From Patescibacteria group bacterium (GTDB taxonomy: Bacteria; Patescibacteriota; Patescibacteriia; Patescibacteriales; UBA12465): a stretch of DNA of 64,000 bases. The stretch is taken from the NCBI GenBank assembly GCA_041651355.1, contig JBAZJK010000001.1:613883-677882 (forward strand), in the 5' to 3' direction. The translations under genes were made by a program, and so were the position numbers. Below, one piece after another: positions 16,251 to 27,746 of the stretch. The notes under the pieces were generated by a model, which worked only from the letters and a program-made list of their open reading frames with translations, did not search any database and was not told the DNA's origin. Positions within the stretch are counted from its first letter, which is position 1. Each line of letters starts with the position of its first letter.

Positions 16251-18215
16251 ATGATAATAAGAGCTTTTATGCCAAGAAAAAAAATCACAAATTTCCTTAA
16301 TTTAGAAAGTTTCGGCCTATTACTGAGCCTGATAGCTATTTTTGGAGCCGGCATTTATTACTTCTACGCCCTAAATCGCTTCGGCCTAGTAATCACACTA
16401 GCCTTGAGTGTGTCGGCTTGGCTTTTTATAATGAAACGGCTATTCAGGGACAAACCAGAAAAAACAAAGGAGGAGGATAAGCCAGAAAAAAATCTTCTAA
16501 ACCTGATATTACTAGCCACCTACACCCTTATCTATCTAGCCCTTTTTTATATCTTGTGGTCCAAACAAAGCGACCGCCCCTTGATTTCACCTTGGGAAAT
16601 AGTGCCGGGTTATTTTTGGCCACTCTTTATTCTGCTCAATCTAACGCTTATCTTCATCCTTAGCCGGAGATATATAAGGACCAACGTGAAATTGGTTTGC
16701 CTGACATTTCACTACCTAATCAATTTCTCCGTGGCTTTGCTAATCTATAAAATAAACTACGGCTTTGACCCTTTCATTCATCAAGCTACTTTGGAACTGA
16801 TTGCCAAAAACGGCAGCGTCGATCCGAAGCCGCTATACTATCTGGGGGAGTACAGCCTCATAATCAGCCTGCATAAAATCTTCGGTTTCTCCATCTACTG
16901 GCTTAATCGCCTCCTAGTGCCATTTATAGCCGCCATCTTCCTGCCCGCCGCCTTGTCTAAATTCCTCACGAGCTTCAAGGGTGATGCTAAATCTAATAAT
17001 ACAATTCTCTTGGCAATACTAGGATTACTAGCCCTACCATTTTCTATCTTCATTATTAGCACTCCCCAAAATCTAGCCTATATATTCTTAATCCTTAGCC
17101 TCTTAGCCTCTTTTGATCAGAAAAAAAATTTAACAGTAAGTACCATTTTTAGCTTAGCCGCCTGTGCTGTCCATCCTCTAGCCGGCCTGGCTGGTTTAGG
17201 CTGGCTAGCCTTTCTGGCTTTTGATAAATACCGAAACCTAGTGCCAAACAACAGGCGAAAACTTATTATCAGAATAATTTTCAGCCTTTTCTGCCTATCC
17301 TGGCCGATAGCTTTCTATGCGAGCACCGGTGGCGGCTTTAAATTAAACGCCTGGTCCGATATAATCAGCCAATTATGGCTGCCTAGTTCCTTCTTCCCTA
17401 ACCAGGAAAATATCTTCCTTAATTTTTCTTACTTCATCTATTTTAACTATCCGGGTTTGATTGCAATCTTAGTCGCACTCGGACTTTATAATTACTATAA
17501 AACGCGGCCAACAGATTCCCGTTTTGCCTATTTAAATTTAGCCTCGCTTGGGATCGCAATCGCTTGGGTTCTTAGCAATCTGTTATCTTTCAATAGCTTG
17601 ATAGATTATGAACAGAATAATTATGCACGGCGGCTCTTGGTCATCCTGGTCATTTTTCAACTGCCCTTCCTTCTCTGGCTAATAGAGTCCTTTATGACTA
17701 AAGTCCTTAAAGCCAAGCCATTGGAAAAAATCATCTGGTCGCTTCTTCTTGCCTTATTGCTCAGCGTCTCTCTGTATACTTCCTACCCCAGGCGGGATAA
17801 TTACCTTAATTCTCGGGGCTACGCTGTTAGCCGGGCCGATATCGAAGCCGTCAACTTCATAGATAAAAACAGCCAAGGGGATTATGTGGTCCTAGCTAAC
17901 CAGCAAACTAGCGCGGCGGCTTTGAAAGAACTGGGTTTCGATCATTATTATCCTAGTCCATCAGGCCCGATCTATTTCTACCCGATACCGACCGGCGGAC
18001 CTTTATACCAATTCTATCTTGATATGGTATACAAAAAACCCGACCGGGCCAGTGTGCTTAAAGCTATGGACTTAGTCGGGGTCGACGAAGCTTATTTTGT
18101 CATTAATAAATATTGGAAAGATAGTCGCCGGATCATCGAAAACGCCAAACTAGAGGCTGATAGTTTTGAATCGATAAATAAAGGAGAAATCTATGTTTTC
18201 CGCTATAAGCGCTAA
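16251..18215 (+). CDS. Large polytopic membrane protein (possible GT-C-like transferase)
   Basis: About 14 hydrophobic segments followed by a soluble tail of about 140 aa. It is divergent from the GT-C gene. The alternative ATG at 16269 (MPRKKI) may be the real start. Confidence 0.4.
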   Translation: MIIRAFMPRKKITNFLNLESFGLLLSLIAIFGAGIYYFYALNRFGLVITLALSVSAWLFIMKRLFRDKPEKTKEEDKPEKNLLNLILLATYTLIYLALFYILWSKQSDRPLISPWEIVPGYFWPLFILLNLTLIFILSRRYIRTNVKLVCLTFHYLINFSVALLIYKINYGFDPFIHQATLELIAKNGSVDPKPLYYLGEYSLIISLHKIFGFSIYWLNRLLVPFIAAIFLPAALSKFLTSFKGDAKSNNTILLAILGLLALPFSIFIISTPQNLAYIFLILSLLASFDQKKNLTVSTIFSLAACAVHPLAGLAGLGWLAFLAFDKYRNLVPNNRRKLIIRIIFSLFCLSWPIAFYASTGGGFKLNAWSDIISQLWLPSSFFPNQENIFLNFSYFIYFNYPGLIAILVALGLYNYYKTRPTDSRFAYLNLASLGIAIAWVLSNLLSFNSLIDYEQNNYARRLLVILVIFQLPFLLWLIESFMTKVLKAKPLEKIIWSLLLALLLSVSLYTSYPRRDNYLNSRGYAVSRADIEAVNFIDKNSQGDYVVLANQQTSAAALKELGFDHYYPSPSGPIYFYPIPTGGPLYQFYLDMVYKKPDRASVLKAMDLVGVDEAYFVINKYWKDSRRIIENAKLEADSFESINKGEIYVFRYKR

Positions 18216-21539: not shown

Positions 21540-22034
21540 CTACTTCTTCTTAGTTTTTAATTCTGCGGCTCGAGCAATCAAATGCGAGCTAGCTCTAATT
21601 TTCCGACCTAAACCATCGACCATCCTAATCCCTAATTTCTTGCAAACCTCGTATTCTGGCACATCATTAATATTGTGACGGTCACCGCCGTTAGCAAAAA
21701 TATCTGGCTTCAGCTTAGCTAGAGACTTAATAACCGTCTTGTCCTTATCGGTCGATAAAAATACTTGGTCGACATCACGCAAAGCTGCTACAATCGCCAA
21801 ACGATCCTTTTCCGGCATAAAAGGCACGCTACCCTTCAAGGCCACCTGCTTATCATTATTTACGATCGCCACTAATTTATCCCCCAACTTCTTAGCCTTA
21901 CTGATCATCTCTAGATGACCGACGTGTAGGGGATTAAAATAGCCAGAAACGGCTACTAAGACTGGCTTTTTAGAGCTAGCCGCTTTAGTTTTACAGCTCT
22001 TCCGAACTGGCGGACAACAACAATTATGAGACAT
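21540..22034 (-). CDS. Cytidylyltransferase-family nucleotidyltransferase (TagD / RfaE-domain-II-like)
   Basis: VAVSGYFNPLHVGHLEMI (the HxGH motif of the cytidylyltransferase superfamily), with a Cys-rich N-terminal tail. Confidence 0.7.
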   Translation of the reverse strand: MSHNCCCPPVRKSCKTKAASSKKPVLVAVSGYFNPLHVGHLEMISKAKKLGDKLVAIVNNDKQVALKGSVPFMPEKDRLAIVAALRDVDQVFLSTDKDKTVIKSLAKLKPDIFANGGDRHNINDVPEYEVCKKLGIRMVDGLGRKIRASSHLIARAAELKTKKK

Positions 22035-22106
22035 AATAAAAAATAAAAAAGTTTATCTTTAATAGTTATATTATAGCAGATAAATAAGGTGCTTCCAAAT
22101 AGTAAT

Positions 22107-23105
22107 TTAATCGGAATATAACCAATAAATATCTAATAAACGCTTTCTCAAATTAAAGGTCTGGCCACTACTTAAAAGCCCTAAATAAGAAGCTAAGTTC
22201 GCCGGCTCTGAACGACAAGACATCTTTCTTAACATCCGCCGCCTAGTCTTGGTTCTTAAAATATAGTAATCGGGAAAATATATATGCCCAAGAAAATCAA
22301 CACCACTAGCTAAAGTTTTTAGATGCAATTTGGTTGGATGGAGTTCTAGTTTCAATCTTTCTCGCAAAAAACCTTCTAACAAGGTCAGCTTGTCTGACAG
22401 ATAATCACAATTGTCAGATAATATGGCAAAATCATCGGCATAACGAAAATAATATTTTACCTTCAAATCATTTTTTACAAATTGATCAAATTCATTCAGG
22501 TAGATATTAACGAATAATTGTGAGGTAAGATTACCCAAGGGCAAACCTTTACCGGGCTGGCAAGAAAAACTCCTAATAATATTTTCTAAAAGGCTCATAA
22601 TCCTCTCATCATCAATATATCTCCTTAAAATGACTATCAAAATTTCTTGATCAATACTATCAAAAAATCTCTTGATATCCGCCTGCAAAACCCAGACTGT
22701 TCTAGTTTTATTTAAACTAACTTTTCCACTAGCGCGACGAAATGCCAGCCCGGCTCGATGCGTCCCCTTGCCTAGCTGACAGGAATAAGAATGGGCAATA
22801 AAAAGCTGACTAAAAAACGGGTAAAGTTGGCGACAAACGGCATGATGGACGAGACGATCACGGACGCTGGCTTTATGAATATGTCTTAATTTAGGATCGC
22901 TGACATAAAAATCTTGATATCCTCCGTGTTGATACGAACCATTGGCAAGCTCAACCTGAAGTTGTAAAATATTATCGCCCAGATGTAAGGAAAATTTTAT
23001 CACATCTTTTTTATTTTTCTTACCAATAATAAATTCGCGCCAAGCCGCTAACAAATTTTCGCCATTACTTATCTCTGAAAATTTAATTAATGATTTTTTA
23101 CTCAT
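22107..23105 (-). CDS. DGR-type reverse transcriptase
   Basis: RT motifs ADIKRFFDSIDQ, LPLGNLTSQLFVNIYLNEFD (DGR-type motif 4), YFRYADDFAILS (YxDD), GVDFLGH and SYSCQLGKGTH. The ATG at 23105 (MSKKSLIKF...ENLLAAWREF) aligns with the N-termini of known DGR RTs. The ORF track extends to a GTG at 23156. Confidence 0.9.
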   Translation of the reverse strand: MSKKSLIKFSEISNGENLLAAWREFIIGKKNKKDVIKFSLHLGDNILQLQVELANGSYQHGGYQDFYVSDPKLRHIHKASVRDRLVHHAVCRQLYPFFSQLFIAHSYSCQLGKGTHRAGLAFRRASGKVSLNKTRTVWVLQADIKRFFDSIDQEILIVILRRYIDDERIMSLLENIIRSFSCQPGKGLPLGNLTSQLFVNIYLNEFDQFVKNDLKVKYYFRYADDFAILSDNCDYLSDKLTLLEGFLRERLKLELHPTKLHLKTLASGVDFLGHIYFPDYYILRTKTRRRMLRKMSCRSEPANLASYLGLLSSGQTFNLRKRLLDIYWLYSD

Positions 23106-23112
23106 GTAAAAT

Positions 23113-23469
23113 ATGCTAATATTACCCCCCCCCGATAAAAATTTTTCAATTCTCACAAAATTAAATGGAGCCTATCTTTTTTGGCAAGTTTCTTTCTTGC
23201 AAATGTCACGTTTGCATCGTTATTCCTTAGGAATCAAGATAGACAATCTTTTTACTGAAACATTAAAATTAATTCTAGCGGCCAAATATTCTCACCGCGA
23301 CCAGAAACTAGAATTCATTAACCAAGCGATAATAGAGCTGGACACTTTAAAATTTTTCCTCCAAATTAGCTGGCAAAATAAATCCTTGGATGACAAGAAA
23401 TATCTGCAACTTAGTGCTTCCCTAGCCGAAGTTGGAAAGATTATAGGTGGTTGGAAAAAACTGTTTTAA
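23113..23469 (+). CDS. avd: Avd-like four-helix-bundle accessory protein (23S rRNA-IVS protein family)
   Basis: FWQ...LQMSRLHRYSLGIKIDNLFTETLKLILAA...LDTLKFFLQISW...LAEVGKIIGGWKKL is the pattern of four-helix-bundle proteins found next to DGR RTs. An in-frame TAA at 23107-23109 forbids an earlier start. Confidence 0.6.
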   Translation: MLILPPPDKNFSILTKLNGAYLFWQVSFLQMSRLHRYSLGIKIDNLFTETLKLILAAKYSHRDQKLEFINQAIIELDTLKFFLQISWQNKSLDDKKYLQLSASLAEVGKIIGGWKKLF

Positions 23470-23472
23470 AAA

Positions 23473-23491
23473 CCCGCTTCAAAGAAGCGGG
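23473..23491 (-). terminator. GC-rich hairpin 9 nt 3' of the TR (intrinsic terminator on the minus strand)
   Basis: cccgcttc-aaa-gaagcggg, an 8-bp stem. The minus-strand reading is followed by TTTTT. Confidence 0.6.
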
Positions 23492-23500
23492 AAAACAAAA

Positions 23501-23640
23501 TACTTGCAAACAGCCAGGAAACGGCAATTCTCATTCCAGTCATTGTCAAACCAGTTGAGATTGAGCTTACGCCTGTTGTCGTCGACATCCAGATAAGGCG
23601 CGTTGCGATTGCCATTGGCATTCTGCCAAATAGAACCCAG
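23501..23640 (-). repeat. DGR template repeat (TR), 140 bp, non-coding
   Basis: Aligns without gaps to 23986-24125 (offset +485). There are 8 mismatches, each at a T on the + strand, which is an A on the sense (minus) strand of the TR. Confidence 0.9.
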
Positions 23641-23895
23641 TAAAAAATCGTCTCCCGCCTTCCTGGCCACCACCCCTTCAATATTTCGTCGGGGTTGAAT
23701 ATAACTTGGGATTTTTAAATCCGCCAGCGGGAAACGCCAAGTATTTTATTTTTAAAAAATAATAACCGGCACGCTAACCAACCGTTTAATTGATTATTCT
23801 GACCAAAATATTATTTTAGAATTCGGCCGCTTACAGCCGTAACCGTAAGCTGATTCGCCTACTATCCAAAGTCATCTTAGCATATTTTTATCTAC

Positions 23896-23932
23896 AAAAA
23901 AACCGCTTCTTCAACTTGAGAAGCGGTTTTTT
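23896..23932. terminator. Intrinsic terminator downstream of the DGR target gene
   Basis: aaaaaaccgcttc-ttcaacttga-gaagcggtttttt, an 8-bp GC core flanked by A and T runs. Confidence 0.7.
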
Positions 23933-23984
23933 ACAAAGAGCTAAGAGACTGAGGGCGAGGGCTAAGAGTTAAAGCGCTAAGCGC

Positions 23985-24614
23985 TTACTTGCAAACAGCC
24001 AGGAAACGGCAACGCCCAACCCAGTCATTGTCAAACCAGTTGAGATTGAGCTCACGCCTGTTGTCGTCGACATCCAGAAAAGGCGCGTCGCGATTGCCAT
24101 TGGCATTCTGCCAAATAGAACCCAGGGCGATAATGGGAAATTTTCTCTGCAAGTCTGGGTATGATGCGCCCAGGGCGAGCAGTTCGACCAAGGTGGCAGG
24201 ACGATAGCCTTGTTTATCCATTTCTTCAATGGCTTTCTGACTACTGATACTGTGGCCGAAATGGAAAAGCTTGGCTTGGACCTGAAGGCTTTGCCCGGAT
24301 AGTTCTACTGGCAAGGGGAAATTTCTAGCATTAACGTCGCCGTTATTCCAGTCATAACGACCAGCGGCAATCATTTGCTCCAGAGTGAGAGAATAGTCAA
24401 TTTTGAGCAGGAACCCGGATTGTTCGGGTTTAGCCGAATTAACATCGATTTTGACCGGGTCTATCTGTCCGGTAACTACTGCGTACATCTTTTTAGCCAG
24501 CGCATTGTCGCGGCTGTTTATGATTTCCTGACAAAGTTCGTCAGTGAATCCGGCTTTTTTAAGAGCCAAGAAGAACTCATGCCCTTTTCCGAGAGCGGCA
24601 CACATTTCGTTCAT
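23985..24614 (-). CDS. DGR target (variable) protein, 209 aa, no signal peptide
   Basis: The C-terminus GSIWQNANGNRDAPFLDVDDNRRELNLNWFDNDWVGRCRFLAVCK is encoded by the VR. The upstream segment GYRPATLVELLAL resembles the conserved core that precedes the VR in C-type-lectin-fold DGR targets. Confidence 0.85.
   Translation of the reverse strand: MNEMCAALGKGHEFFLALKKAGFTDELCQEIINSRDNALAKKMYAVVTGQIDPVKIDVNSAKPEQSGFLLKIDYSLTLEQMIAAGRYDWNNGDVNARNFPLPVELSGQSLQVQAKLFHFGHSISSQKAIEEMDKQGYRPATLVELLALGASYPDLQRKFPIIALGSIWQNANGNRDAPFLDVDDNRRELNLNWFDNDWVGRCRFLAVCK
23986..24125 (-). repeat. DGR variable repeat (VR), the last 46 codons of the target gene
   Basis: 132/140 identity to the TR. Differences lie at 24013, 24014, 24016, 24019, 24020, 24053, 24079 and 24089, all opposite TR adenines. 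Confidence 0.9.
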
Positions 24615-24721
24615 GGTGTATAGATTTTAAAATAGCTATTACTCAACTACTAGGCCGTTGAGATTTGGCATTATTAATGAAGATATTAAAGCATTTTTTA
24701 TTAATTATGTCAATATTAAAC

Positions 24722-24747
24722 AAAAAGAGCCATCTCTGGCCCTTTTG
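24722..24747 (-). terminator. groEL intrinsic terminator
   Basis: Imperfect hairpin aaaagagcca-tctc-tggccctttt, followed by a T-run on the minus strand. Confidence 0.6.
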
Positions 24748-26903: not shown

Positions 26904-27746
26904 TTATAGGTGGATAAACAAGTATCCATTAATGCCACGGACTTCGTGGCAATAGGTCAGGACGAAAAGTCCGCCGCAATACTTATTCTTAAAGGACTTG
27001 ATTCCGCCCCATTCGCCTCTCACGAGGTCTTTCTTTACCAGATCATATCCAGTATCACTGACTACTGAGTAGCCATGTCCCAGATCAACCTGGAGAAAAT
27101 TGCTCACCAGATTGTCCTGGCGCCAGACAAAAACGTTAGAAACACGTCCGATGGTAGCAGTTAAGACCGTGCCCAGTTTCTTGTCGCCTTCATTATAGAA
27201 AGCGGAAGCAACGATCTTTTTGTATCCAATCTTGGCCTGGTATTCAGCCATTCCGTTTCTTTGGGCCACGCCGGCACCAATAGTCAGGTTATCATTAGCT
27301 TTATAGCTTGCCTTGGCACAAATTGCCATTCCGGGGATCTTGGACTCAGTCCAAGTCTCGAATTGACCACCAGCTGAAGTTGGCAGGGGACGCTGTTCGG
27401 TAACAAGGGTGCCCATATTCCCCAGGGAGATGGTGAGAGCCTTAGTCGGGTTGATAACCACGGAATACTGGTTCATGGCCCAGTCAGTCTTATTTGTCCT
27501 ATCGTAGACCGACATAGCCTTGATGGCAAAGAAAGAGGATGGGCGCCAGGTAGCCAGAGCGCCAACACGGAAGTTGGTGGTGTTAGTAGCAGACAAGCTA
27601 TCTACACTGAAAGAATTCCAACTGAGGGCTCCAGCATAGAGCTGGTTGATCGTAACCTCTTCGTCTACCTTGATATTTTCCATCTGGGCAAACAGGTTAG
27701 TAACGCTAATGAAAGCGAAAAGCGTGGCAACTGTGATTTTCTTCAT
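26904..27746 (-). CDS. Signal-peptide-bearing porin-like beta-barrel protein (putative)
   Basis: Signal peptide MKKITVATLFAFISVTNLFAQ. The remaining roughly 260 aa show an alternating polar/hydrophobic strand pattern rich in G, Y, W and N. It has its own terminator. Confidence 0.45.
   Translation of the reverse strand: MKKITVATLFAFISVTNLFAQMENIKVDEEVTINQLYAGALSWNSFSVDSLSATNTTNFRVGALATWRPSSFFAIKAMSVYDRTNKTDWAMNQYSVVINPTKALTISLGNMGTLVTEQRPLPTSAGGQFETWTESKIPGMAICAKASYKANDNLTIGAGVAQRNGMAEYQAKIGYKKIVASAFYNEGDKKLGTVLTATIGRVSNVFVWRQDNLVSNFLQVDLGHGYSVVSDTGYDLVKKDLVRGEWGGIKSFKNKYCGGLFVLTYCHEVRGINGYLFIHL

What the first reader, a model, noticed from the sequence alone, without database searches (positions are those of the whole stretch)
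23985..24614. DGR target is a small protein with no signal peptide or membrane anchor
The 209-aa target begins MNEMCAALGKGHEFFLALKKAGFTDELCQEII. This is not hydrophobic and has no lipobox or TM segment, so the diversified ligand-binding surface is predicted to be cytoplasmic unless it is exported by a non-classical route. The VR (WQNANGNRDAPFLDVDDNRRELNLNWFDNDWVGRCRFLAVCK) ends exactly at the stop codon. It is preceded by GYRPATLVELLAL, reminiscent of the conserved core of C-type-lectin-fold variable proteins. An intracellular hypervariable binder in a putative episymbiont-type genome is functionally unexplained. Possibilities include sensing, defence or host-factor binding.
Basis: inference. 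Interest (0 to 1): 0.55.

Follow-up and report, generated by a model that had tools for sequence, protein, structure and literature searches.

The report
Signal-less hypervariable lectin-fold protein, Patescibacteria
This is the target gene of a complete diversity-generating retroelement in a Patescibacteria (CPR) genome: a small protein with no export signal and a predicted lectin-like, hypervariable C-terminal domain, belonging to an already catalogued class of CPR targets whose cellular location and role are still unknown.

Summary
ORF 23985..24614(-) encodes 209 aa. An in-frame TAA lies 5 codons upstream of the ATG, and no segment is hydrophobic enough for a signal peptide or membrane anchor.

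- **DGR cassette:** The last 46 codons are a DGR variable repeat (23986-24125). It differs from the template repeat (23501-23640) at 8 positions, all template adenines. An Avd gene on the opposite strand and an intact reverse transcriptase complete the cassette.
- **Fold:** AlphaFold2 (pLDDT 92-96) predicts an N-terminal three-helix module, a disordered linker and a compact C-terminal domain. The top 50 PDB Foldseek matches are all C-type lectin-like domains, but the similarity is modest (TM about 0.5, E 3e-3 or weaker). No Pfam, NCBIfam, PHROG, PADLOC or PDB sequence match exists.
- **Family:** It is very large (8,509 50%-identity clusters) and almost entirely Patescibacteria. It is already catalogued as the "UVR2" class of CPR DGR targets.
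- **Export signals:** Roux et al. 2021 already reported that CPR targets typically lack membrane or export signals, and left open whether they are truly non-membrane-bound. About 5% of family members have signal peptides, lipoboxes or membrane anchors. None of 24 DGR-adjacent copies does, but this difference is not significant.
- **Neighbours:** No secretion genes recur next to family members.

Verdict: a normal member of a known class. The cytoplasmic location is inferred, not shown.

The parts
23985..24614 (-). DGR target gene (variable protein), 209 aa plus stop
   Evidence: ORF listing. An identical protein is in NCBI (P0001). 147 close homologues and 8,509 representative clusters. Homologous to UVR2-class reference DGR targets.
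24459..24614 (-). N-terminal three-helix module (residues 1-52), not hydrophobic
   Evidence: AF2 helices at 2-20, 25-32 and 35-48, pLDDT 83-93. KD scan. Homologous N-modules occur in many family members.
24423..24458 (-). Predicted disordered linker (residues 53-64)
   Evidence: pLDDT below 50 for residues 53-64. This region varies in length in the family alignment.
23988..24422 (-). Conserved C-terminal domain (residues 65-209), predicted C-type-lectin-like fold
   Evidence: pLDDT about 98 in the full model and 96.2 (pTM 0.91) in the domain-only model. All top 50 PDB hits are CTLDs. BFVD hits are viral CTLDs.
23986..24125 (-). Variable repeat (VR): codons 164-209 plus TA of the stop codon
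   Evidence: 140-nt direct repeat, 94% identical to TR, with 8 of 8 mismatches at TR adenines.
23972..23986 (-). Short GC-rich palindrome AAGCGC-tta-GCGCTT directly after the VR (possible target-site hairpin)
   Evidence: Read from the sequence and DNA fold. Its role is inferred by analogy with the inverted repeat downstream of IMH in characterised DGRs (Wu et al. 2018).
23895..23928 (-). Terminator-like hairpin plus T-run after the target gene
   Evidence: AACCGCTTCT...AGAAGCGGTT TTTTTT.
24685..24713 (-). Possible own promoter of the target gene (TTGACA-17 nt-TTTAAT, with TGC before the -10)
   Evidence: Read from the sequence. The consensus scan did not list it because the -10 lacks A at position 2. 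This is a weak inference. The groEL terminator-like hairpin lies just upstream at 24746..24723.
23501..23640 (-). Template repeat (TR): 35 adenines, 10 AAY codons
23468..23491 (-). GC-rich hairpin plus T-run 10 nt downstream of the TR
   Evidence: Terminator-like site. An equivalent hairpin follows the TR in 15 of 16 related loci examined.
23113..23469 (+). Avd accessory gene, on the strand opposite to target, TR and RT
   Evidence: Pfam bAvd 3.8e-12, NCBIfam DivGenRetAVD 3.9e-15, PHROG 'Avd protein of DGR' 3.8e-14. Same inverted position in 23 related loci.
22107..23105 (-). DGR reverse transcriptase (ATG at 23105; the mechanical ORF extends to a GTG at 23156, overlapping Avd)
   Evidence: RVT_1 1.3e-20, PHROG 1423 3.2e-93. 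LGNLTSQ and YADD motifs are visible in the translation.

Best explanation
The gene is the variable-protein gene of a complete, apparently functional Patescibacteria-type diversity-generating retroelement. The order is target, TR, inverted Avd, RT.

The protein has three parts: a small N-terminal three-helix module, a flexible linker, and a compact C-type-lectin-like domain. The last 46 residues of that domain are copied from the TR.

Error-prone reverse transcription of TR RNA, with misincorporation opposite adenines, followed by cDNA replacement of the VR (mutagenic retrohoming), can rewrite 22 codons, about 1e20 protein variants. Most of these codons sit at alternating positions along the two C-terminal beta-strands and their loops, which would form one variable binding face. 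The rest of the domain and the N-module stay constant.

The protein has no Sec, Tat, lipoprotein or membrane-anchor signal, and the start codon cannot be moved upstream. I therefore take it to be a soluble, most likely cytoplasmic, hypervariable binder. The constant parts would couple ligand recognition to a cellular partner.

Shown here: the DGR anatomy, the adenine-specific differences, the absence of signals, and family membership. Predicted: the fold. Inferred: the location and the binding role.
For: - **Cassette:** RT, Avd and the TR/VR pair are identified, and 8 of 8 mismatches lie at TR adenines.
- **Coding capacity:** TR has 35 adenines, 10 AAY codons and 22 recodable codons, about 1e19.9 variants.
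- **Conservation:** 23-24 of 80 Patescibacteria genome loci carry the same cassette order. Their VR/TR mismatches are adenine-specific, for example 24/24, 23/23 and 20/20. Remote copies in the same MAGs also match the TR with an adenine bias.
- **Fold:** AF2 pLDDT is 91.8 for the full protein and 96.2 (pTM 0.91) for the domain. All top 50 PDB hits are C-type lectin-like domains.
- **No export signal:** The maximum KD(19) is 0.76 and a TAA lies 5 codons upstream of the ATG. Other proteins in the same window do have ordinary signal peptides or membrane anchors, so the organism uses standard signals.
- **Family pattern:** Classical signals are rare in the family, about 12 of 258, and absent from all 24 DGR-adjacent copies.
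- **Neighbours:** None recur apart from RT and Avd, and none are secretion genes.
- **Precedent:** Cytoplasmic DGR targets are described by Dore et al. 2024 (PMC10907252).
Against: - Lack of a signal is negative evidence only. No dedicated predictor (SignalP, DeepTMHMM) and no experiment was available.
- A few family members do carry signal peptides, a lipobox or a membrane anchor. One has a J domain and a membrane segment ahead of the lectin-like domains. The domain can therefore work outside the cell.
- In some homologues the first N-terminal helix is hydrophobic, with KD(19) of 1.7-2.4. A membrane association of the N-module is not excluded.
- The 0/24 versus 3/58 contrast between DGR-adjacent and other copies is not significant.
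- The fold match is modest: TM at most 0.51 and no Foldseek E at or below 1e-3.
- Ongoing diversification in this genome was not shown. Only 8 of 35 adenines differ, and no population variants were found.
- No ligand or partner is known.
Confidence: 0.6

Rival explanations
1. The protein is displayed on or released from the cell by a route that needs no classical signal. For example, the N-terminal helical module could dock it onto a pilus, a type IV secretion apparatus or another exported partner. There its variable face would mediate attachment to host cells, which is the role usually proposed for CPR DGR targets.
For: - CPR bacteria are thought to depend on hosts, and attachment is the published hypothesis for their DGR targets (cited in Dore et al. 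2024; Roux et al. 2021).
- Some family members are clearly exported or anchored, with a signal peptide, lipobox or membrane segment.
- Most characterised cellular DGR targets are surface proteins (PMC8867640).
- Helix 1 of some N-modules is hydrophobic.
Against: - No export signal in this protein or in any of 24 DGR-adjacent homologues.
- No secretion, pilus or other recurrent neighbour genes in 80 loci.
- Where the family is exported it uses ordinary Sec signals, so a second, cryptic route is an extra assumption.
- The lipobox-bearing paralogue in a DGR-carrying MAG (L056) does not match that MAG's TR.
Confidence: 0.28
2. The cassette belongs to a prophage or other mobile element, and the protein is a virion receptor-binding protein. 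Such proteins assemble in the cytoplasm and so need no signal peptide, as with Mtd of Bordetella phage BPP-1.
For: - DGRs were first found in phages, and phage targets lack signal peptides (established knowledge).
- The RT matches a PHROG family.
- The RT-Avd segment has lower GC than its flanks, 0.33-0.37 against about 0.43.
- One homologue lies on a true phage contig (L088).
Against: - The flanks are housekeeping genes: groES-groEL, cytidylyltransferase, YceG, UppP. The same is true in other loci, which carry aminoacyl-tRNA synthetases, ribosomal proteins and RecO.
- The target has no PHROG match.
- Only 1 relative was found in 2.9 million viral contigs, against 111 in genome contigs. That phage copy sits next to a methyltransferase and terminase, not tail genes, and has no RT nearby.
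Confidence: 0.04
3. The element is a relic. The cassette no longer diversifies the gene, and the protein acts as a fixed-sequence protein of unknown role.
For: - Only 8 of 35 TR adenines differ in the VR, fewer than the 16-28 differences common in related loci.
- No alternative VR alleles were found by an exact-word scan of metagenome contigs.
- About 70% of family members in genomes have no RT within 6 kb.
Against: - The RT ORF is intact, with YADD and LGNLTSQ motifs, and Avd is intact.
- TR and VR are in perfect register, with no indels and no non-adenine changes. Decay would add non-adenine differences.
- The hairpins after the VR and the TR are preserved.
Confidence: 0.08

Closest known systems
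UVR2-class DGR target proteins of CPR bacteria (class defined by Wu et al. 2018, PMC5758913; sequences in Roux et al. 2021 Supplementary Data 8)
   Same: Homologous over nearly the full length, including the N-terminal module: 35% and 42% identity, E 3e-44 and 2e-53. Same size of about 200 aa. The VR lies at the extreme C-terminus and ends ...CRF(L/A)AV(R/C)K. Same host group.
   Different: Nothing essential. This copy carries one of several N-module sequence subtypes. For the class, Wu et al. could not tell whether the VR lies in a lectin, Ig or other fold and found no functional match. The lectin-like fold prediction here adds to that.
C-type-lectin-fold DGR variable proteins with solved structures (Mtd of phage BPP-1, TvpA of Treponema denticola, archaeal-virus AvpA)
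   Same: The VR occupies the C-terminal roughly 45 residues of a lectin-type fold. It is templated by an AAY-rich TR and diversified at adenines (established knowledge of the family).
   Different: No detectable sequence similarity. There is no FGE-sulfatase or DUF1566 Pfam match in any of 118 members. These structures did not appear among the top 50 Foldseek PDB hits, which were animal CTLDs. Mtd is a trimeric phage tail-fibre protein. [quoted passage not shown] This protein has no export signal.
Predicted cytoplasmic DGR-diversified 'antigen sensors' of multicellular bacteria (Dore et al. 2024, PMC10907252)
   Same: A lectin-fold VR on proteins predicted to be cytoplasmic. This is a precedent for intracellular DGR targets.
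   Different: Those targets carry, or sit next to, STAND/NACHT or MoxR-type NTPases and effector domains, and belong to RT clade 5. Here there is only a roughly 50-aa helical module and no PADLOC hit. The neighbours are housekeeping genes, and CPR RTs mostly form a separate clade 2.
Animal and viral C-type lectin-like domains (BDCA-2, mincle, NKR-P1, rhodocetin, poxvirus and herpesvirus CTLDs)
   Same: Best structural matches: probability up to 1.0, about 120 aligned columns, TM 0.44-0.51.
   Different: Identity is 5-14%. Only one Cys is conserved in the family consensus, so no conserved disulfide is possible. An extra N-terminal strand-helix extension (residues 65-108) is present. The relation is fold-level only.

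Membership tests
Diversity-generating retroelement (system) | A reverse transcriptase of the DGR type next to the repeat pair | tested here: met
   RVT_1 1.3e-20 and PHROG 1423 3.2e-93. The LGNLTSQ and YADD motifs are visible in the translation. That the SQ motif marks DGR RTs is from established knowledge.
Diversity-generating retroelement (system) | A TR/VR pair whose differences are confined to template adenines | tested here: met
   140-nt repeat with 8 of 8 mismatches at TR adenines, chance about 1.5e-5.
Diversity-generating retroelement (system) | The VR lies at the 3' end of a protein-coding target gene, and TR adenines fall mostly in codon positions 1-2 (AAY codons) | tested here: met
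   The VR covers codons 164-209 and runs into the stop codon. There are 10 AAY codons and 22 recodable codons.
Diversity-generating retroelement (system) | Accessory variability determinant (Avd) | tested here: met
   bAvd 3.8e-12 (below Pfam's cut-off margin but above 40 bits), NCBIfam DivGenRetAVD 3.9e-15 (56 bits, below the curated 80), PHROG Avd 3.8e-14. It lies on the opposite strand, as in 23 related loci.
Diversity-generating retroelement (system) | Ongoing mutagenic retrohoming (VR heterogeneity in populations, or experimental activity) | tested here: inconclusive
   An exact 30-mer scan of metagenome contigs found no further copies. No reads were available.
UVR2 class of CPR DGR targets | An alignable VR and target sequence shared with the reference UVR2 targets | tested here: met
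   BLASTP E 3e-44 and 2e-53 against two UVR2-labelled reference targets, over residues 13-209.
C-type-lectin-fold variable proteins | The VR is embedded in a C-type lectin-like fold | tested here: met
   In two AF2 models (pLDDT 91.8 and 96.2), all top 50 PDB Foldseek hits are CTLDs, with probability up to 1.0 and TM 0.44-0.51. No E at or below 1e-3 was reached. This rests on prediction, not a solved structure.
C-type-lectin-fold variable proteins | Sequence membership in FGE-sulfatase (PF03781) or DUF1566-type lectin families | tested here: not met
   No such Pfam hit for the protein or for any of 118 family members at E up to 1. No PDB sequence hit with a single sequence or with the profile.
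Surface-displayed cellular DGR targets (TvpA and LdtA type) | An N-terminal signal peptide, lipobox or membrane anchor | tested here: not met
   Maximum KD(19) is 0.76, there is no lipobox, and a stop lies 5 codons upstream of the start. Tested with a hydropathy heuristic and by eye, not with SignalP or TMHMM.
DGR-diversified conflict-system sensors (STAND or MoxR-associated) | A fused or adjacent NTPase or effector domain | tested here: not met
   No Pfam or PADLOC domain in the target. The neighbours are groEL/ES, cytidylyltransferase, YceG, DUF3160, MazG and BacA. No neighbour recurs across 80 loci.
Phage receptor-binding DGR targets (Mtd type) | Location among phage structural genes | tested here: not met
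   Housekeeping flanks. No PHROG hit for the target. One relative in 2.9 M viral contigs.

The most novel reading that the evidence does not exclude
The UVR2 family (thousands of clusters, in nearly every Patescibacteria lineage sampled here) is a truly cytoplasmic, DGR-diversified recognition module: a minimal 'intracellular antibody' with no fused effector. Its variable lectin-like face would capture changing intracellular ligands, such as phage proteins or molecules taken up from the host cell. Its constant face or N-terminal helical module would report to a cellular partner. On this reading, CPR bacteria aim targeted hypermutation inward rather than at the cell surface.
Probability: 0.25. 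Interest if true: 0.7.

Novelty: new member of a known kind. Interest (0 to 1): 0.3.

Why it matters
DGRs are unusually common in CPR bacteria, yet nobody knows what their targets bind or where they act. This locus is a clean example with a complete cassette, a single target and an unambiguous start codon. It belongs to the largest-looking class of such targets.

Two small additions come out of this work:
- The class is predicted with high confidence to be a compact lectin-like domain behind a helical module. This supports the guess by Roux et al. that unassigned CPR VR domains are new lectin-fold variants.
- Classical export signals do occur in the family, but rarely, and not in the DGR-adjacent copies sampled.

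Neither point settles the location question. The finding is a useful, well-defined test case rather than a discovery.

Tried and rejected
- **Sequence libraries:** Pfam, NCBIfam, PHROGs, PADLOC and PDB sequence searches found nothing credible for the target, either as a single sequence or as a 118-member profile. The weak OspC3 and keratin hits (E 0.3-0.7) are chance.
- **Upstream start or alternative code:** Rejected. The upstream stop is TAA.
- **Type IV pilin-like leader in the N-terminus:** Rejected on reading. There is no G-F/M-x-x-x-E motif, helix 1 is amphipathic here, and AF2 packs it into a three-helix bundle.
- **Locus scan with the 118-sequence alignment:** A 13-sequence alignment worked.
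- **Population variants of the VR:** An exact 30-mer scan of metagenome contigs found none.
- **Link between export signals and lack of DGR adjacency:** The counts lean that way (0/24 against 3/58 clear cases) but are not significant. I make no claim.
- **Conserved partner or secretion genes:** None found. The third-largest neighbour cluster is an antisense ORF inside the target gene.
- **Paul et al. 2017 (PMC5436926):** This primary CPR DGR survey is not held in the library. Its content is cited only through papers that quote it.
- **Further targets or paralogues in the 64-kb window:** None.
- **N-terminal module search:** I ran no further search on the N-module alone, because family members would fill the result list.

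Full report
**Observation**

- Translating upstream in frame meets a TAA 5 codons before the ATG and further stops beyond it. The N-terminus cannot be extended. The stop would also be read under the alternative code used by some CPR lineages.
- The most hydrophobic 19-residue window in the protein averages 0.76 on the Kyte-Doolittle scale. There is no lipobox.
- Other proteins in the same window start with ordinary signal peptides or membrane anchors, for example MKKITVATLFAFISVTNLFAQ at 26904..27746 and the YceG and DUF3160 proteins. The organism therefore uses standard signals, and this protein has none.

**The retroelement**

- A 140-nt direct repeat links 23986-24125 (VR) to 23501-23640 (TR), with no gaps.
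- All 8 differences lie at TR adenines. TR is 25% A, so this has a chance of about 1.5e-5.
- The VR covers codons 164-209 and the first two bases of the stop codon.
- TR has 35 adenines and 10 AAY codons. 22 codons can be recoded, giving about 1e20 protein variants. Many sit at alternating positions (170/172/174/176, 179/181/183, 186/188/190/192). On the predicted beta-strands these would point to one face.
- Downstream lie an Avd gene on the opposite strand (23113..23469) and an intact reverse transcriptase (22107..23105; RVT_1 1.3e-20, PHROG 1423 3.2e-93; LGNLTSQ and YADD motifs).
- The cassette sits between groES-groEL on one side and cytidylyltransferase, YceG and DUF3160 genes on the other.
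- The 64-kb window holds no second target.

**The protein**

No Pfam, NCBIfam, PHROG or PADLOC family matches it, and no PDB sequence does, either singly or as a 118-member profile.

AlphaFold2 with that alignment gives a confident model (pLDDT 91.8):
- helices at 2-20, 25-32 and 35-48;
- a disordered linker at 53-64;
- a compact domain at 65-209 with pLDDT about 98.

A domain-only model reached pLDDT 96.2 and pTM 0.91. Against the PDB, the top 50 Foldseek matches of both models are all C-type lectin-like domains, including BDCA-2, mincle, rhodocetin, NKR-P1 and CLEC5A. Probability is up to 1.0 over about 120 aligned columns, with TM 0.44-0.51, but E-values are only 3e-3 to 8e-2. Viral CTLDs lead the BFVD search.

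I read this as good but not conclusive support for a lectin-like fold. The solved DGR variable proteins did not appear among the listed hits, and the similarity is at fold level only.

**The family**

- A word-indexed search found 147 relatives, with one exact match in a 'Patescibacteria group bacterium' MAG on an 881,714-bp contig.
- A full profile search of 1.84 billion representatives found 8,509 clusters at E <= 1e-3 and 2,044 at E <= 1e-30. Most are 180-215 aa, and some carry two or three tandem domains.
- A scan of one genome per species returned 111 relatives. The 80 kept are almost all labelled Patescibacteria lineages: Falkowbacteria, Komeilibacteria, Saccharibacteria, Paceibacterota, Nealsonbacteria, Uhrbacteria and others. 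Some third-party assemblies are labelled 'uncultured Gammaproteobacteria' or 'Bdellovibrionales'. Their gene content looks the same, and I did not verify those labels.
- In 23-24 of the 80 loci the order target(+), TR(+), Avd(-), RT(+) recurs. The VR/TR differences there are adenine-specific, for example 24/24, 23/23, 21/21 and 20/20.
- Some copies on other contigs of DGR-carrying MAGs also match the TR with an adenine bias (15/17, 25/33, 8/8). Others do not (6/21, or no match).
- Apart from RT and Avd, no neighbour recurs. The flanks are aminoacyl-tRNA synthetases, ribosomal proteins, NYN and the like, with no secretion or pilus genes.
- Only one relative was found in 2.9 million viral contigs. 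It lies on a true phage contig beside a methyltransferase and terminase, without an RT.

**Export signals in the family**

- Of 258 retrieved members, about a dozen have textbook signal peptides, a lipobox or a membrane anchor, for example MKKLVAGLALLLVLFGVFPSLGAAAQ.
- One has a J domain and a membrane segment ahead of two lectin-like domains.
- In the unbiased genome set, clear signals occur in 3 of 58 copies not adjacent to an RT and in 0 of 24 adjacent ones. This is not significant.
- The lipobox-bearing paralogue L056 shares a MAG with DGR locus L027 but does not match its TR.
- N-termini fall into several helical subtypes. In one subtype (MAKKDVSAIVSGMGLAMSIVTALV...GGxDEDIHRL), helix 1 reaches hydropathy values that a simple predictor might call a membrane segment. 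The homologous helix in the window protein and in other subtypes carries charged residues. I therefore take it to be a core helix of a small bundle, without proof.

**What is already known**

- The protein is a full-length homologue of reference DGR targets labelled UVR2 (E 3e-44 and 2e-53).
- Wu et al. 2018 defined UVR1-6 as CPR VR classes whose fold could not be assigned. They found no functional match for UVR2 genes.
- Roux et al. 2021 state that targets of CPR clade-2 DGRs typically have no recognisable transmembrane or other domain. They add that it remains to be established whether these are truly non-membrane-bound, and they guess that the unassigned VR domains are new lectin-fold variants.
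- Dore et al. 2024 describe predicted cytoplasmic DGR targets in multicellular bacteria. Those are tied to NTPase conflict systems and a different RT clade.

**Mechanism and rivals**

- **Main explanation (0.6):** Mutagenic retrohoming rewrites one face of a lectin-like domain on a soluble, probably cytoplasmic protein. The constant N-module or the conserved YDW/FP surface would contact a cellular partner.
- **Non-classical display for host attachment (0.28):** This remains the main rival.
- **Relic element (0.08):** Unlikely, because the RT and Avd are intact and the TR/VR pair shows no non-adenine changes.
- **Phage receptor-binding role (0.04):** Unlikely, because the flanks are housekeeping genes and relatives are almost absent from viral contigs.

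**Verdict**

The locus is a regular member of a known class of CPR DGR targets. The new content is a confident lectin-like fold prediction for the UVR2 class and a family-wide picture of N-termini. Interest is modest.

Noticed in passing
window 23113-23469 (+), and loci L002, L008, L010, L014, L016, L019, L027 and others: The Avd gene lies on the strand opposite to the target, TR and RT, squeezed between the TR and the RT start. The same inverted position recurs in 23 related Patescibacteria loci, so RT transcription from upstream would run antisense through Avd.
   Followed up: partly
window 23468-23491 (-), and the equivalent position in 15 of 16 related loci: A GC-rich hairpin followed by a T-run lies 10-20 nt downstream of the TR (CCCGCTTCtttGAAGCGGG TTTTT). 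It is conserved in position but not in sequence across the clade. It may end a short, separate TR RNA or be a structural part of the DGR RNA.
   Followed up: partly
window 23972-23986 (-) and 23895-23928 (-): A short palindrome AAGCGC-tta-GCGCTT starts inside the stop codon, right at the VR end. A stronger terminator-like hairpin follows about 55 nt downstream, and its stem (CCGCTTC...GAAGCGG) resembles the one after the TR.
   Followed up: no
window 22107-23156 (-): The mechanical ORF for the RT starts at a GTG (23156) that overlaps the Avd start. An ATG at 23105 (MSKKSLIKF...) is the more plausible start, leaving the two divergent start codons only about 8 nt apart.
   Followed up: no
window 26904-27746 (-): A 280-aa ORF with a clear Sec-type signal peptide (MKKITVATLFAFISVTNLFAQ) has no match in Pfam or NCBIfam. 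It lies just upstream of groES.
   Followed up: no
window 22000-23400 compared with its flanks: The RT-Avd segment has lower GC (0.33-0.37) than the flanks (about 0.43) and the target gene (0.46-0.49). This hints that the enzymatic half of the cassette has a different history.
   Followed up: no
L088 6028-6504 (IMG/VR contig IMGVR_UViG_3300029959_000621): The only viral relative is a 158-aa copy without the N-terminal module. It sits on a phage contig between small early-type genes, a DNA methyltransferase and the terminase, with no RT within 6 kb.
   Followed up: partly
proteins P0002, P0121-P0134, P0199, P0258; loci L011, L022, L038, L080: The family also occurs in other arrangements: two or three tandem domains in one protein; tandem paralogous genes (three in L022); two targets served by one TR (L038, L080); one copy fused behind a DnaJ domain and a membrane segment; and one copy fused to DUF1064.
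   Followed up: partly
loci L010, L012, L013, L017-L021, L028 and others: Many third-party MAG assemblies carrying this Patescibacteria-type cassette are titled 'uncultured Gammaproteobacteria' or 'Bdellovibrionales'. The labels look unreliable but were not checked.
   Followed up: no
window 16251-18215 (+): A 654-aa ORF has no Pfam or NCBIfam match. It lies next to a PMT_2-type glycosyltransferase and a DUF3160 protein.
   Followed up: no
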